A stretch of DNA of 39,599 nt from a virus. Lineage: Duplodnaviria; Caudoviricetes. The notes beneath the pieces were generated by a model. The model ran no database searches. It was given only the letters and a program-made list of their open reading frames with translations, and was not told the DNA's origin. Made by a program: the position numbers and the translations under genes. Location of the stretch: IMG/VR virus record IMGVR_UViG_3300025723_000084, positions 1-39,599 of that record, one strand, 5' to 3'. Within the stretch, counting starts at the first letter, position 1. Each line of letters begins with the position of its first letter. Below are positions 32,588 to 39,599 of this stretch, one piece after another.

Positions 32588-34468
32588 ATGGCTACACAAA
32601 ACTATCATGTATTAAAGAACTCAAGCGTTCTTGTTCCGGCAACTACCGCGGACTTGGGATCGGTAAGTCAACCATATGGAAATCTATATCTAGCTGGTAA
32701 CTTGACATTAGGTGGTGGAGCTGGTACAATTACTGCTACAAGTACTGTAGTCCCTAAAATATCAGGTCTTACATACCCTAATGGAGAAACTGCTGCTATT
32801 CCAACTGGTGGTGAAACCATTATTGTCAATGGTAGCGGATTTTTAAATGGTATCAATGTATATGTAAATAATCTAATTGTAGGTAGCACATCATTAATAA
32901 GCGGAACACAAATATCATTCACAAGTCCAGTACTAGCGGCAGGTAATTATCCATTAGCAGTTGTTAATAGTGACGGGGGAAGTGCAACATTTGTTGCTGG
33001 CATCACATATAGCAATGTACCTGTTTGGACAACCAGTGCAGGTAGTTTAGGTACATATCAAGAGGGAAATACTGTGTTGTCTACTCTTGCTGCAACAGAC
33101 GGTGCTTTAAGTATTACATATTCAATAACTAGCGGTAGCTTGCCAGGTGGATTGAGTTTAGGTAGTGCAAATGGTAACATTACTGGTACACTATCAAATG
33201 TAGTATCATCTAGCGTTACATATAATTTTACTGTTGGTGCCGCAGACCCAGCTAATCAAGTCGTCACACGCAATTTTAGTTATGTAATTAATGGAGATAG
33301 TATTACATGGAGTAATCCAACTAATGCATCAAGTTATAACCTTGCTAATGCATCAGCGATGTCCAATATTACATTAAGTGCTACAAGCGCATTTGGTAGA
33401 AGTGTTACATATAACGCAGTTTGTTTACCAACTGGAGTTAGTTTAAGTGGTGGAAATATTACAGGAACACCAACTGTTACCGGAACTAAAACTGCAACAA
33501 TCTATGCGAATACAAATACCAAATCAGCAAGCATAAGTGTTACATTTAAGGTAGCAGATCCAACCGTAGCTGCTACGGGTGGTACAGTTACTACAGTTGG
33601 CTGTTACAAAATTCATACGTTCATTTGCTCAGGTGCATTTACAGTTACTGCCCCCGGTAGTGTTGAAATTGTAGCAGTTGCAGGAGGTGGTGCAGGAGGT
33701 AGTGGTTATGGTGGAGGCGGAGCCGGTGGTATTATATACCACCCCTCATTAAGTGTAACATCTCAAACTTATACGATTTCTATTGGTGCAGGTGGTACAG
33801 CAGTTACAAATCGCGGACATAACGGTTCAGATACTACCGCTTTAGGGTTAACTGCTAAAGGAGGCGGTGGCGGAGGCGGAGCTGGATATTATCCTTCTCT
33901 AGCATGTGTTACCGGTGCTGACGGGGGTAGTGGCGGAGGCGGTGGAGGTGAAAGTAGATTTTGTGGTCCAGGTGGCGGAGGAAAAACTATACAAGCGTGT
34001 TATACTGTGACAGGTGCCACAACATACGGACACAAAGGTGCTGGCTATACAGGTGGTTGCTTTTTTGGAGCAGGTGGTGGTGGTGGTGCCGGCGCAGCCG
34101 GCATATTTGGAAGTTCATATGGTCACACTTATATCAGAGGTGGCGCCGGCGGTGCAGGTATAGTGAACCCGATAAGTGGTTCTACTATAGGTCAATGTGT
34201 CTCTGGTACTAGATATATCGGTGGGGGAGGCGGAAGTAATAGTGGTGTAGCTTGTAATGGCGGTCAAGAAATTGGTGCAGGTGGTATCGGGGGCGGAGGA
34301 AACTCTGGTGATCCTACTGGATGTTTAAATCGTTGCTGTTGTAAGAGACCAGGAAAACCCGGTACAGTAAATACGGGGGGCGGCGGGGGCGGTGGCGCAA
34401 AGGCAGCTTGTGCCCCAGGTGGAAGGGGCGGTTCTGGAGTAGTTATTGTAAAATACAAATACCAATAA
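32588..34468 (+). CDS. Virion adhesin-like protein: IPT/TIG + Ig-like domains + glycine-rich C-terminal domain (paralogue 1)
   Basis: GGETI.V.GSGF, GSLPGGLSL, YKIHTF, VAGGGAGG, NTGGGGGG, GGSGVVIVKY. Confidence 0.8.
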   Translation: MATQNYHVLKNSSVLVPATTADLGSVSQPYGNLYLAGNLTLGGGAGTITATSTVVPKISGLTYPNGETAAIPTGGETIIVNGSGFLNGINVYVNNLIVGSTSLISGTQISFTSPVLAAGNYPLAVVNSDGGSATFVAGITYSNVPVWTTSAGSLGTYQEGNTVLSTLAATDGALSITYSITSGSLPGGLSLGSANGNITGTLSNVVSSSVTYNFTVGAADPANQVVTRNFSYVINGDSITWSNPTNASSYNLANASAMSNITLSATSAFGRSVTYNAVCLPTGVSLSGGNITGTPTVTGTKTATIYANTNTKSASISVTFKVADPTVAATGGTVTTVGCYKIHTFICSGAFTVTAPGSVEIVAVAGGGAGGSGYGGGGAGGIIYHPSLSVTSQTYTISIGAGGTAVTNRGHNGSDTTALGLTAKGGGGGGGAGYYPSLACVTGADGGSGGGGGGESRFCGPGGGGKTIQACYTVTGATTYGHKGAGYTGGCFFGAGGGGGAGAAGIFGSSYGHTYIRGGAGGAGIVNPISGSTIGQCVSGTRYIGGGGGSNSGVACNGGQEIGAGGIGGGGNSGDPTGCLNRCCCKRPGKPGTVNTGGGGGGGAKAACAPGGRGGSGVVIVKYKYQ

Positions 34469-34492
34469 GATAAAATAAGAGATTAAAATAAA

Positions 34493-36292
34493 ATGGCAAC
34501 ACAAAATTATCATACATTAAAGAACTCAAGTGTTCTTGTACCAGCAACTAGTGCTGATTTAGGAACAAGTCAGCAGCCATATGGTAACTTATATCTAGCT
34601 GGTAACTTGACATTAGGTGGCGGAGCAGGTACGATTACTGCTACAAGTACAGTGGTTCCTAAAATATCAGGATTGACTTATCCAAATGGTGCAACTGCCG
34701 CGAATCCTACAGGTGGAGAAACAATCACTATCAATGGCAGTGGTTTCTTATCTGGTCTTAATGTATATGTAAATAATTTACAAGTAGCTAGTGCTAGTCA
34801 AGTCAGCTTAACACAAGCTACATTTGTGAGTCCTGTGAATTCAGCAGGTAACTATCCATTAGCAGTTGTTAATAGTGATGGAGGTAGTGCGACATTTGTT
34901 GCTGGAATCACATATAGCAATGTACCTGTATGGACAACTAGTGCAGGTAGCCTTGGAACGTTCCAAGAAGGAAATAGTATAGCAAACACAATTGCAGCTA
35001 CTGACGGAGCATTATCAATAACTTATTCAGTTACTAGTGGTAGCTTACCTGGTGGATTGAGTTTAGGCAGTGCAAATGGTAACATTACTGGTACATTATC
35101 AAATGTAACTGCAGGAACTAATGTAACTTATAATTTTACTGTTGGTGCTGCCGACCCAGCTAATCAAGTCGTTACACGTAATTTTAGTTATGTGGTGAGC
35201 GGTGATACAGTTACTTGGAGTAGTCCAACTAACGGAACAAACAAATCAATTGTCACAGGTGGTGCCATATCTAATATTGGTTTAAGTGCAACAAGTACAT
35301 TTGGTCGTACTGTAACATATGGTGCAACCTGTTTACCAACTGGTTTAAGTATCAGTGGTGGAAATATTGTAGGTACACCAACTGTAATAGGTACTAAAAC
35401 TGCAACTATATATGCTAATACAAATACTAAATCATCTAGTATTACAGTTAACTTTACTGTAACTAGTCCGTTCATTAGTGCTACAGGTGGTACAATAACA
35501 ACAGTAGGTAACTACAAAATTCATACATTCACTACAGGTAGTACATTCACACCCTCAGTTGGTGGAACTGTTCAATACCTAATTGTCGGCGGTGGAGGTG
35601 GCGGAGGTGGTAGCGGATATACCTTCGGTGCCGGCGGAGGTGCTGGTGGATTCGTAACCGGATGTACTACTGTAACTGCACAGGCATATACTATATGTGT
35701 TGGCGGTGGAGGAGCTGCTGGTTCGGCTGGCTGTAATTCTGTTGCATTTGGTATCACTGCATATGGCGGTGGGGTTGGTGGTACTTTAGGATCACCCGGA
35801 GGCGGCGGTGGTAGCGGAGGCGGTGGTGGTGGAGGAACTAGTTCATGTTTCCCGGGACCAGCCGGTGGGTCTGCTACGCACGGTAGCCAAGGTCACAGTG
35901 GTGGAAGAGGTAATAGATTTCCTAGTTGTGGTAGATCACCTGGCGGTGGAGGAGGCGGAGCCGGCGCAATAGGTGCATGTGGTTCTTTTTCTGGTGCAAC
36001 AGGTGGTGACGGCTTACCAAATCCAATATCTGGTTCTACAATAGGTCAATGCGTTAGCGGTACTCTTTATGTAGCCGGTGGCGGTGGCGGTGGCGGAGGT
36101 GGAAACTTCTGCGGAGGTGGAATAGGAGGTGCCGGTGGCGGTGGAAGAGGGGGAACTTATATAAACTGTAGAGGTTCATATTCCGGATACAACGCAACTG
36201 TTAACACTGGTGGCGGTGGCGGCGGCGGTGGACCTAGAGGTGCCTATCAGGGAGGCTCAGGGGTAGTAATTATTAAATATCAGTTCCAATAA
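34493..36292 (+). CDS. Virion adhesin-like protein: IPT/TIG + Ig-like domains + glycine-rich C-terminal domain (paralogue 2)
   Basis: Tandem paralogue of 32588-34468 with a near-identical N-terminal half. Confidence 0.8.
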   Translation: MATQNYHTLKNSSVLVPATSADLGTSQQPYGNLYLAGNLTLGGGAGTITATSTVVPKISGLTYPNGATAANPTGGETITINGSGFLSGLNVYVNNLQVASASQVSLTQATFVSPVNSAGNYPLAVVNSDGGSATFVAGITYSNVPVWTTSAGSLGTFQEGNSIANTIAATDGALSITYSVTSGSLPGGLSLGSANGNITGTLSNVTAGTNVTYNFTVGAADPANQVVTRNFSYVVSGDTVTWSSPTNGTNKSIVTGGAISNIGLSATSTFGRTVTYGATCLPTGLSISGGNIVGTPTVIGTKTATIYANTNTKSSSITVNFTVTSPFISATGGTITTVGNYKIHTFTTGSTFTPSVGGTVQYLIVGGGGGGGGSGYTFGAGGGAGGFVTGCTTVTAQAYTICVGGGGAAGSAGCNSVAFGITAYGGGVGGTLGSPGGGGGSGGGGGGGTSSCFPGPAGGSATHGSQGHSGGRGNRFPSCGRSPGGGGGGAGAIGACGSFSGATGGDGLPNPISGSTIGQCVSGTLYVAGGGGGGGGGNFCGGGIGGAGGGGRGGTYINCRGSYSGYNATVNTGGGGGGGGPRGAYQGGSGVVIIKYQFQ

Positions 36293-37764: not shown

Positions 37765-38016
37765 TTATTCTGATTTAGTTGGGCTGATAATGGCGGTAGA
37801 TGTTTCACGATCTATCGTCATATAACCCTCACAACTGAAATTCCAATCGTCATTTCCCATACCATCGCCGGTAGTTTCATCGTATGTTGGAACATTGACT
37901 TTAAAGTGTTTGAATAAGAATTCTTTACCATTCTCAAATACACGCCAAACATGGTCTTTACTACCACGACCTGGCATACCTCTACTCTTGTTAAAACGAA
38001 TGTGATACTTGTTCAT
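37765..38016 (-). CDS. Hypothetical phage protein
   Basis: 83 aa, ATGA-coupled to the oxygenase; IRFNKSRG.PGRG..HVWRVFENG. Confidence 0.8.
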   Translation of the reverse strand: MNKYHIRFNKSRGMPGRGSKDHVWRVFENGKEFLFKHFKVNVPTYDETTGDGMGNDDWNFSCEGYMTIDRETSTAIISPTKSE

Positions 38017-38774
38017 ATGATTTCGGGTTGATCGCCGACATCAATATTTATCGACCCTGAGGTAGGGCTTGTTGGGTTAATCATCTCATCTACGTTAAGT
38101 GTGAAGTGAATAAGTCGTACTGGACTCTTGCTATGATTACGCCCAATACTATGAGGTGTCCAAGCGTTGATAATAAACAAATCACCTGGATTGGGCACAA
38201 AATTAACTGCATCACTGGCATAGGTTGCATTAGTGATATTAGCTTCAGGTAAGTTAACTTGTTTCTTACTAGGCCTTGGATCGTGAAATACAAGTCTAGA
38301 AGAATCTTTTGGTACATCTAAAAAGTAAAATCCTACAATCTGTGCACCTTGACCATGTATATGTTCTTCATGTGCACTATGTTGAAAATGCTCCTGTACC
38401 CACATGCTACTGAAATATACACGCTTATTTCGCATATCATATCCTTGACCCTGTAATGTATCATATGAAATATCAGCAATGTATTGTGCTAATACTGCAA
38501 TGTCCGGGTCATTGGAAATATCATGCGTTTGATACAATGGGAAGATAGGATCCATTTTAGGATTCTCTTTTTTAAATTTAGTCAATGCTCTATTAGAACA
38601 CTTTCTAGCATCAGTCAGTAGACTTGGAATTTCTATCTTGTATACAGATGTTGTAAAATAATCAAATCTGTTACCATTAAGTTCTAATGGAGCAGGTGTG
38701 TCAGTAGATTCAACGATTTCTGGTGTATCTTGTACGATAACAGAATCTTTAGTAGATGTTTTAGATTTTTTCAT
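38013..38774 (-). CDS. 2OG-Fe(II) oxygenase (TIGR02466-like putative family)
   Basis: W......H..H.H, G.YFL..P, LVFHDPRP, PGDL.I..AW..H.I, R..I.F; AATAAATA (38780-38787, - strand) 5 nt before the ATG. Confidence 0.85.
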   Translation of the reverse strand: MKKSKTSTKDSVIVQDTPEIVESTDTPAPLELNGNRFDYFTTSVYKIEIPSLLTDARKCSNRALTKFKKENPKMDPIFPLYQTHDISNDPDIAVLAQYIADISYDTLQGQGYDMRNKRVYFSSMWVQEHFQHSAHEEHIHGQGAQIVGFYFLDVPKDSSRLVFHDPRPSKKQVNLPEANITNATYASDAVNFVPNPGDLFIINAWTPHSIGRNHSKSPVRLIHFTLNVDEMINPTSPTSGSINIDVGDQPEII

Positions 38775-38830
38775 ACAGATATTTATTTTGATTTACTATA
38801 CCCGAAAAAAAGATAAATATATACATATAA

Positions 38831-38928
38831 AGAACACACCTTAGGACCGGTACTAGTTACCGTGGTGTAGCCGGCTGCTGGCTTGAGTCATCCAATTCGC
38901 TACTGGAACCTCAAAAGTGAGCCCTATC
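38831..38928 (+). ncRNA. Candidate structured non-coding RNA (unassigned family)
   Basis: GC-rich intergenic island with five short stems and possible pseudoknots, downstream of GATAAATA (38812-38819). Confidence 0.6.
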
Positions 38929-38951
38929 TACAAAAAGCATAAATACTAATT

Positions 38952-39599
38952 ATGCGTTATAACGAACTACTTATTGAATCCGCTGCTAGAGAATTAGCAG
39001 AAAAACTCCCTACCTTAAGTCATCACACTTACAATTCTATTGATAAATTGATGCAACATATCAGCGCAAAGCATAAAATAAGTGGTAAAAAATTACATGA
39101 TTTATTTGTGCACAAATATGGTCATACACCAGATATTTGGATTAAAAAACTTAAACATAAGTTAGGCGAAGAAGATGTTCAGGAAGGTTGGAGTGAAAAG
39201 TATAAGCGCAGTATTGATTGCTCACATCCAAAAGGCTTCAGTCAAAAAGCACATTGTGCAGGTAAAAAGAAACACAATGAAAGTATTGAGATGGAAATGG
39301 TTTGTCCAGACTGTGGCATGTGCGAAACACATAGTGACCATGAAAACTTAGACGAAGCATGTTGGAAAGGTTATCACAAAGAAGGTAACAAAAAGATGTT
39401 TGGTAAAACATATCCAAACTGTGTAAAGAATGAAGATGTGGTGGAAGGATGGAAAGATTTGGCAGTAGGCGGAGCAATGGCATTAGGAGCATTGGGGGCG
39501 AGCAATGCTCAAACTGCTGATTTAAGCGCATTCAATACAAATTATCTACAGTCAGTTGTAGATGGCACCGCAGGCAGAGCAATGGTCAGTGTAGATGGC
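38952..39599 (+). CDS. Polyprotein-like putative internal head protein (3'-truncated; missing from the ORF track)
   Basis: Open to the window end: MRYNELLIE-SAAR...VQE-GWSEKYKRSIDC...LDE-ACWKGY...VVE-GWKDLAVGG; CATAAATA (38938-38945) 6 nt upstream. Confidence 0.85.
   Translation, partial: MRYNELLIESAARELAEKLPTLSHHTYNSIDKLMQHISAKHKISGKKLHDLFVHKYGHTPDIWIKKLKHKLGEEDVQEGWSEKYKRSIDCSHPKGFSQKAHCAGKKKHNESIEMEMVCPDCGMCETHSDHENLDEACWKGYHKEGNKKMFGKTYPNCVKNEDVVEGWKDLAVGGAMALGALGASNAQTADLSAFNTNYLQSVVDGTAGRAMVSVDG

What the first reader, a model, noticed from the sequence alone, without database searches (positions are those of the whole stretch)
38831..38928. GC-rich, multi-stem ncRNA candidate with its own late promoter
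The pairings seen are ACACC 38836-40/GGTGT 38864-68, CGGTA 38848-52/TACCG 38858-62, AGCCG 38869-73/TGGCT 38879-83, TGAG 38884-87/CTCA 38910-13, and TCCA 38891-94/TGGA 38904-07 with loop ATTCGCTAC. Possible long-range pairings are TAGG 38842-45/CCTA 38923-26 and loop GCT 38874-76/AGC 38920-22. A GATAAATA motif lies upstream, and the next gene has its own CATAAATA, so this looks like a stand-alone transcript of about 100 nt rather than a leader. It is not a tRNA cloverleaf or a terminator, and I cannot assign it to a known family. It could be a ribozyme, a decoy RNA or a packaged RNA.
Basis: partly seen in the sequence, partly recalled or inferred. Interest (0 to 1): 0.72.

Follow-up and report, generated by a model that had tools for sequence, protein, structure and literature searches.

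The report
Phage RNA antisense to 23S rRNA
This jumbo-phage genome carries a conserved, roughly 90-base folded RNA element whose two unchanging loops are the exact complement of adjoining stretches of the bacterial large ribosomal RNA, so it likely grips the host's large ribosomal subunits and would put them out of action, something I found in no paper searched.

Summary
Real. The element at 38836-38922 (+) belongs to a large phage RNA family (about 1000 IMG/VR stretches) with no Rfam match. Its stems covary, G-U pairs fix the + strand, and a pseudoknot tucks away the 3' end. The invariant loops CTTAGGAC and TTCGCTAC are reverse complements of abutting 23S rRNA stretches 1922-1929 and 1930-1937 (helix 69-70). 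A second, terminator-type architecture keeps only these segments, and a subfamily swaps one loop for a 6-base match to 23S 1964-1969. It is mostly single-copy and usually sits just behind a stop codon of unrelated genes. It also occurs in the cultured Pseudomonas phages Paride and PA5oct. Best reading (inferred, untested): a trans-acting RNA that invades helix 69-70 of free or assembling 50S subunits and disables them. No expression or binding data. The scan found this family before on other DNA (29 notes). Not found in the papers searched.

The parts
38836..38922 (+). Folded RNA core (type I): P1/P1b with guide 1, P2 with pseudoknot loop, P3/P4 with guide 2, 3' tail
   Evidence: homologue alignment and covariation; model R1
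38812..38819 (+). T4-like late-promoter motif GATAAATA in front of this copy (function inferred)
   Evidence: T4-type late promoter recalled
38836..38868 (+). P1 (38836-40 with 38864-68) and optional inner hairpin P1b (38848-52 with 38858-62)
   Evidence: pairs present; P1 of 4 or more pairs in 102 of 118 copies under constrained folding; P1b absent in short members
38838..38849 (+). Guide 1: exact complement of 23S 1920-1931; core CTTAGGAC 38840-38847 matches 1922-1929
38854..38860 (+). Auxiliary segment TAGTTAC, complement of 23S 1910-1916 (helix 69 loop side)
   Evidence: GTT in 47 of 50 type I inserts against a shuffled mean of 9.8
38869..38883 (+). P2 hairpin; loop GGCTGCT 38873-79 pairs with the 3' tail (pseudoknot); 38872-82 is also complementary to 16S 517-527
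38884..38913 (+). P3 (38884-87/38910-13) and P4 (38891-94/38904-07)
   Evidence: two-sided changes in all 6 pairs counted
38895..38903 (+). Guide 2, loop ATTCGCTAC; 38896-38903 is the exact complement of 23S 1930-1937
38915..38922 (+). 3' tail AAGTGAGC, pseudoknot partner of the P2 loop
38939..38945 (+). Separate late-promoter motif of the next gene
38013..38774 (-). Divergent neighbour, 2OG-Fe(II) oxygenase-like gene (context only), with its own ATAAATA at 38780-86 (-)
38952..39599 (+). Downstream gene of unknown function (context only; cut by the window end); relatives of it follow the RNA in part of the family

Best explanation
The element is a conserved phage RNA fold carrying two invariant loops complementary to adjoining parts of 23S rRNA helix 69-70, and it likely acts in trans by pairing with that region of free or assembling 50S subunits, which would open the region and keep those subunits from joining 30S. 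Shown: the fold, the strand, the complementarity, the family and the genomic placement. Inferred steps: (1) It is made as the 3' part of a phage mRNA, or here from its own late promoter. (2) Its 3' end is protected by the pseudoknot (type I) or a terminator hairpin (type II). (3) Guide 1 nucleates on 1922-1929 and guide 2 on 1930-1937, and pairing spreads into helix 69 through the GTTAC segment. (4) The bound 50S cannot form its helix-69 bridge to 30S and is sidelined, possibly for breakdown. I put pairing with 23S at about 0.85 and a disabling outcome, given pairing, at about 0.7.
For: The longest 23S complement of the element (12 nt) and the 8-nt complement of the P4 loop abut on the rRNA; chance for two given 8-mers to abut within 3 nt is about 3e-5. 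G-U outnumber A-C 40 to 1 in seven stem positions of 119 distinct copies, and 51 of 56 type II copies have a T-run after the guide-2 hairpin: both point to the + strand. Type II shares only the rRNA-complementary segments with type I. In type II the 18 nt after CTTAGGAC, which were in no search pattern, pair with 23S 1900-1921 better than their shuffles in 40 of 43 sequences (-12.8 vs -7.7 kcal/mol). Type I variation is wobble-compatible: A or G opposite U1911 in 45 of 47, C or T opposite G1910 in 45 of 47, and C or T opposite G1929 in 116 of 119. A subfamily replaces guide 2 with AGTCGTGC, whose last 6 nt match 23S 1964-1969 on the other side of helix 71; there guide 1 extends over 1930-1933 in 55 of 88 against 17 of 112. 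The target 1922-1937 is identical in 21 of 21 genomes with a match, of 46 searched. The three best of 227 rRNA windows in co-folding cover this site. No contiguous self-target with up to 2 mismatches was found in 11 phage genomes, apart from one element itself. One strong copy per genome and unrelated upstream genes fit a trans-acting gene. A review reports that a PNA against helix 69 blocks E. coli translation (PMC12828698, passage).
Against: No transcript, binding or phenotype was observed. PA5oct's four RNA-seq-defined ncRNAs do not include this locus (PMC7318152 Table 1). A phage needs ribosomes, so the benefit of disabling 50S is not obvious. The target lies at the subunit interface and is probably inaccessible in 70S (own knowledge). 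Guide 1 is hardly more exposed than the RNA's average in unconstrained folding (0.50 vs 0.45), and several members, including Paride, can pair part of it internally. In type I the helix-69 extension is weak: 33 of 50 beat their shuffles and 6 of 50 rank in the top 5% of random 23S windows. The swapped loop matches only 6 contiguous bases, and that 6-mer has two other sites in 23S. Sequence counts are not phylogenetically independent. The promoter class differs (late motif here, sigma-70 type ahead of the upstream gene in Paride and PA5oct), so timing may not be conserved. 8 of 9 named jumbo-phage records lacked a match.
Confidence: 0.6

Rival explanations
1. It pairs with 23S helix 69-70 but helps the phage's translation, for example by prying apart or reactivating idle or hibernating ribosomes, or by shielding free 50S from nucleases.
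For: It has the same complementarity evidence as the best reading. It is present in Paride, which replicates in deep-dormant P. aeruginosa (PMC10761892, abstract and passages). Internal partial pairing of guide 1 could make binding reversible.
Against: Predicted duplexes are stable (guide 1 -22 kcal/mol, with extension -31), so release needs a factor. The guides stop at 1937 and leave the 1942 cleavage site uncovered. The Paride paper's main text has no occurrence of 'ribosom', so it gives no link.
Confidence: 0.15
2. It is a cis-acting 3'-UTR element that captures the 50S released at the upstream stop codon, aiding recycling or re-initiation on that mRNA.
For: In 53 of 61 distinct type I copies a same-strand frame of 70 codons or more ends within 25 nt of guide 1; type II looks similar.
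Against: It is single-copy and follows unrelated genes. The window's copy has no upstream gene on its strand and sits behind a promoter motif.
Confidence: 0.1
3. It is a bipartite guide that directs a phage enzyme, or its own core, to modify or cut 23S rRNA at the G1929/G1930 junction.
For: The two 8-nt guides abut without a gap, as the arms of bipartite guides do.
Against: The loop-swap subfamily does not keep the junction. Type II lacks the core fold. No partner gene is consistently adjacent.
Confidence: 0.07
4. It is a self-cleaving ribozyme, a protein decoy or a packaged RNA whose match to rRNA is incidental.
For: It is a compact pseudoknotted fold with many invariant bases, placed at transcript junctions.
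Against: The match probability is about 3e-5 before counting the extra segments. The fold is replaced in type II while the rRNA-matching segments stay. There is no Rfam ribozyme match.
Confidence: 0.05
5. It works as DNA (an rDNA-like integration or nuclease site) or as a minus-strand rRNA mimic.
For: The minus strand reads as pieces of 23S rRNA, and one carrier is classed as a provirus.
Against: G-U to A-C of 40 to 1 and the terminator polarity give the + strand. The pieces are split and permuted. Variation is wobble-compatible. That provirus record holds no contiguous target site.
Confidence: 0.03

Closest known systems
Loop-presenting antisense RNAs (CopA/CopT of plasmid R1, RNA I/RNA II of ColE1, OxyS-fhlA); recalled, and named in earlier scan notes
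   Same: A structured small RNA that shows short complementary seeds in loops and would extend pairing by strand invasion; two separate loops contact one target.
   Different: Those act on mRNA or primer RNA. Here the predicted target is host 23S rRNA, the seeds are invariant across distant phages, and two unrelated scaffolds carry them.
3'-UTR-derived bacterial sRNAs that pair with a target and promote RNase E cleavage a few bases downstream (recalled)
   Same: Position right after a stop codon, protected 3' end, short seed. The RNase E site that starts 23S decay (after 1942, PMC4931109) lies 5 nt beyond the predicted duplex.
   Different: rRNA target; type I ends in a pseudoknot, not a terminator; no processing or Hfq dependence was tested.
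Box C/D and H/ACA guide RNAs and U3-type rRNA chaperones of archaea and eukaryotes (recalled)
   Same: Trans pairing with rRNA through short, partly bipartite antisense segments.
   Different: No Rfam snoRNA match above chance, no fixed junction, and a bacterial virus rather than a cell. No partner protein was found.
Synthetic anti-helix-69 PNA (Kulik 2017, seen only through the review PMC12828698)
   Same: Same rRNA region; reported to block translation.
   Different: An artificial oligomer; the element would be a natural, virus-encoded counterpart.
Phage proteins that bind host ribosomes (phiKZ, as summarised in PMC13282480)
   Same: Jumbo phages acting directly on the host ribosome.
   Different: Protein-based; here RNA-RNA pairing is predicted.

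Membership tests
Any Rfam 15 family | Score at or above the gathering threshold | tested here: not met
   0 hits in the window and in 8 homologue loci; 3 sub-threshold hits with E of 2.4 or more near the element
tRNA or tmRNA | Cloverleaf or tmRNA detected by ARAGORN | tested here: not met
Intrinsic terminator | GC-rich hairpin followed by a U-tract | tested here: not met
   none at window 38600-39100; type II relatives do end in such a hairpin
Known self-cleaving ribozymes (hammerhead, HDV-like, twister, pistol, hatchet) | Family consensus and fold | tested here: not met
   no Rfam hit
Known self-cleaving ribozymes (hammerhead, HDV-like, twister, pistol, hatchet) | Self-cleavage in vitro | not testable with these tools
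   bench test
Trans-acting antisense sRNA | Conserved seed complementary to a target encoded elsewhere | tested here: met
Trans-acting antisense sRNA | Seeds exposed in the RNA's own fold | tested here: inconclusive
   guide 2 is a hairpin loop (unpaired 0.64); guide 1 unpaired 0.50 vs 0.45 overall
Trans-acting antisense sRNA | Discrete expressed RNA | tested here: inconclusive
   no reads examined; not among PA5oct's four listed ncRNAs
Trans-acting antisense sRNA | Pairing-dependent effect on the target | not testable with these tools
   bench test
Bipartite rRNA modification guide (H/ACA-like) | Fixed target junction between the two arms | tested here: not met
   loop-swap subfamily
Cis-regulatory leader or riboswitch | Consistent downstream gene class with no promoter in between | tested here: not met
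   downstream genes vary; a late-like motif follows in 57 of 117 and TTGAC/TTGCT in 37 of 117

The most novel reading that the evidence does not exclude
Jumbo phages encode an RNA that opens helix 69-70 of free 50S subunits and thereby exposes the neighbouring RNase E site at 1942, turning the host's own ribosome-disposal pathway on to harvest nucleotides and phosphate for phage DNA synthesis.
Probability: 0.2. Interest if true: 0.95.

Novelty: categorically new. Interest (0 to 1): 0.85.

Why it matters
If true, a widespread group of phages controls the bacterial ribosome by RNA-RNA pairing with one of its most conserved working parts, a mode I know of for synthetic oligomers but not for a natural bacterial or phage RNA. 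The target is the same across the phyla sampled, so one RNA could work in many hosts. Cultured carriers (Paride, PA5oct) on a laboratory host make it directly testable, and it offers a candidate handle on how such phages deal with idle ribosomes in slow-growing cells.

Tried and rejected
Rfam, ARAGORN and terminator scans: negative. Single-sequence folding: not better than shuffles. BLAST of the window element and of two divergent members against cultured phages gave only short matches. One 19-nt match (MT835492.1) has no guide-2 loop in the stretch read and was not counted. Sequencing runs: no RNA holder was listed, so no reads were laid.

The TAGG/CCTA long-range pair was rejected (4 of 118). 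The 16S 517-527 match of the P2 loop (11 nt) was ranked as probably incidental: 25 of 119 copies mismatch it at one position, and divergent members change the loop together with the tail. A minor role is not excluded. 7-nt matches of the P2 loop and tail to 23S 1070-1076 and 1099-1105 were set aside for the same reason.

Cellular genomes: 2 of 83 pattern hits were full elements, both in one metagenome-assembled genome with phage-like flanks, and probably misbinned. One search had the pseudoknot columns one position off and is superseded. Model R1 covers type I only and missed a type II carrier. The script labels 42 of 120 metagenome loci 'likely chance'; a few of those are rDNA or real members. 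Host of the window's phage: not determined.

Full report
Observation. It is a 53% GC island in a 36% GC window, between a divergent 2OG-Fe(II) oxygenase-like gene and a downstream gene of unknown function. Folded alone it is no more stable than shuffles (z -0.09). Rfam, ARAGORN and the terminator scan find nothing. The window is a 39.6-kb virus record with tail, lysis, clamp-loader, PhoH and ClpA-like genes. Two of its proteins have their cultured matches, all under 60% identity, mostly among jumbo phages such as 121Q, GAP32, Paride and Atu_ph07. The host is unknown.

Family and fold. A 16-mer from the element gave 45 viral loci, 40 of which show the same element. A three-part pattern gave 120 fetched loci of about 1000 estimated. 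Across fetched loci there were 162 matches and 119 distinct full-length copies (copies near contig ends were dropped). On 84 of these, 93.5% of cells pair, 9 of 16 pairs change on both sides, and the covariation score is 0.517 against 0.170 in shuffles (0/500), with slid controls at 47% or less. P1 was assessed by constrained folding and has 4 or more pairs in 102 of 118 copies. The P2 loop pairs with the 3' tail, and divergent members change both together. The proposed TAGG/CCTA pair is not conserved (4 of 118). In seven stem positions G-U outnumber A-C 40 to 1, so the + strand is the RNA.

The invariant loops are antisense to 23S rRNA. I recalled the resemblance and then tested it on E. coli rrnB fetched by tool. 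Window 38838-38849 is the exact complement of 23S 1920-1931, 38896-38903 of 1930-1937, and 38854-38860 of 1910-1916. The cores CTTAGGAC and TTCGCTAC cover 1922-1929 and 1930-1937 without a gap; chance for two given 8-mers is about 3e-5. In Rfam's consensus this region is the 3' strand of helix 69, a small loop and mostly unpaired bases ahead of helix 71; the helix numbers and the role of helix 69 as a subunit bridge are from my own knowledge. The stretch 1922-1937 is identical in all 21 genomes with a match, of 46 searched. In co-folding, the three best of 227 rRNA windows cover this site for the window's copy, and the two best do for the Paride copy.

Independent support from variants. A scan for copies lacking the C before guide 1 gave about 200 stretches (96 distinct cores in 120 loci, some chance). 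Most have a different architecture (type II): guide 1 followed by a helix-69-complementary stretch, then a long hairpin with ATTCGCTAC as its loop. A T-run follows in 51 of 56 such copies; 37 matches were set aside as fitting neither type. The 18 nt after guide 1 were in no pattern, yet pair with 23S 1900-1921 better than their shuffles in 40 of 43 type II sequences. The same test is weak in type I (33 of 50), where only GTT plus wobble-compatible neighbours are kept (47 of 50, shuffled mean 9.8) and the base opposite U1915 is free. U1915 is N3-methylated in mature rRNA (recalled), but that position is also a hairpin loop. A further subfamily (about 320 stretches; 104 distinct in 120 loci) keeps the type I scaffold but has the loop AGTCGTGC, whose last 6 nt match 23S 1964-1969 on the far side of helix 71. 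That 6-mer has two other sites in 23S, and I formed the idea from three sequences before scanning. In that subfamily guide 1 extends over 1930-1933 in 55 of 88 against 17 of 112 canonical copies; relatives inflate these counts. The 11-nt match of the P2 loop to 16S 517-527 is not kept in divergent members and is better explained by the pseudoknot.

Placement. In 53 of 61 distinct type I copies with enough flank, a same-strand frame of 70 or more codons ends within 25 nt of guide 1, and those genes are unrelated to each other. Model R1 found one strong copy in each of eight type I carriers of 200-370 kb, plus a weaker paralogue without guide 1 in one of them. The window's copy has no upstream gene on its strand and follows ATAAATA, a motif found before 9 of 32 ORF starts (0.46 expected); only 6 of 117 family copies have TAAATA upstream. 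Of 83 hits in prokaryote genomes, 2 were full elements, probably on misbinned phage contigs. No contiguous target site with up to 2 mismatches occurs in 11 phage genomes, apart from one element itself. Of nine named jumbo-phage records, Paride has the element right after the stop of Paride_0501 and before a terminator, and eight have no match. Eleven Pseudomonas phage records, including PA5oct, share the Paride copy.

Mechanism. Shown: fold, strand, complementarity, family, placement. Inferred: a stable RNA, 3'-protected by pseudoknot or terminator, pairs in trans with helix 69-70 of free or assembling 50S, blocks subunit joining and may hand the subunit to decay. RNase E starts 23S breakdown by a cut after 1942 (PMC4931109, passages), 5 nt beyond the predicted duplex; this is the basis of the novel case and is untested. 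Against the reading: no expression or binding data; the locus is absent from PA5oct's four listed ncRNAs; guide 1 is only modestly exposed; the promoter class differs between carriers; and the benefit of disabling ribosomes is unclear. The rivals are a helpful or protective pairing (0.15), a cis 3'-UTR element (0.10), an enzyme guide (0.07), an incidental match (0.05) and a DNA or minus-strand role (0.03).

Literature. Six searches of the held library for such an RNA or its loci showed no description in the listings. Searches located the PA5oct paper and papers mentioning Paride; two searches were background. Seen: PMC7318152 (passages, a supplement search, and one part of its spreadsheet, which lists a promoter for EST35_0189 and no terminator at this locus); PMC4931109, PMC12828698, PMC10761892 and PMC13282480 (passages); PMC10690425 (abstract start, and a search of 3 of 6 held supplements with no hit). 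The alignment archives of PMC10690425 could not be opened, so the motif may be among its unnamed candidates. Subscription journals and bioRxiv supplements were not searched.

Earlier scan notes. A look-up by sequence found none. By words, 29 notes describe this family on other DNA, one naming Paride and PA5oct. These are unchecked AI notes, seen after my own rRNA and Paride results, and are not counted as evidence.

Verdict. A real, conserved phage RNA element of an uncatalogued family, probably acting on 23S rRNA; function untested. Interest 0.85.

Noticed in passing
L849 (G003:C1:76937-77017, +): A second, weaker paralogue in one complete jumbo genome: it keeps P2, the pseudoknot tail and a guide-2 region extended to match 23S 1927-1936, but lacks guide 1.
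   Followed up: partly
L890 (metagenome contig, match at 132-218, -): A variant whose second segment is a long complement reaching into 23S helix 71.
   Followed up: no
L500, L503, L531, L592, L607: A third architecture with GTTACGGCCG after guide 1 (complement of 23S about 1905-1914) and a separate terminator-like hairpin downstream.
   Followed up: partly
L388, L475, L132, L335, L670 (Paride): These members carry an internal CCTAAGG or CTTAAGG that can pair with guide 1, a possible built-in safety catch.
   Followed up: partly
L507, L508, L513, L525, L539 and other type II loci, just upstream of guide 1: A recurrent small hairpin with loop TTTGAAGA sits between the stop codon and guide 1; unexplained.
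   Followed up: no
L595: Two TTAGGAC copies in tandem within one type II element.
   Followed up: no
window 38780-38819: Back-to-back ATAAATA motifs on opposite strands serve the divergent oxygenase-like gene and the RNA.
   Followed up: partly
window 38952-39599: The downstream protein is built of short modules separated by Glu-rich joints; earlier scan notes read such proteins as head cargo cut by the prohead protease.
   Followed up: no
window 32588-36292: Two tandem paralogous Gly/Cys-rich proteins of about 600 aa with near-identical N-termini.
   Followed up: no
many type I loci, about 75-100 nt downstream (e.g. L004, L052, L064): A sigma-70-like promoter and a conserved gene of about 87 aa follow the element, so it often marks the end of a gene block.
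   Followed up: partly
L227, L234: Two full elements on contigs of one Haliscomenobacter metagenome-assembled genome, with phage-like flanks; probably misbinned, not host evidence.
   Followed up: partly
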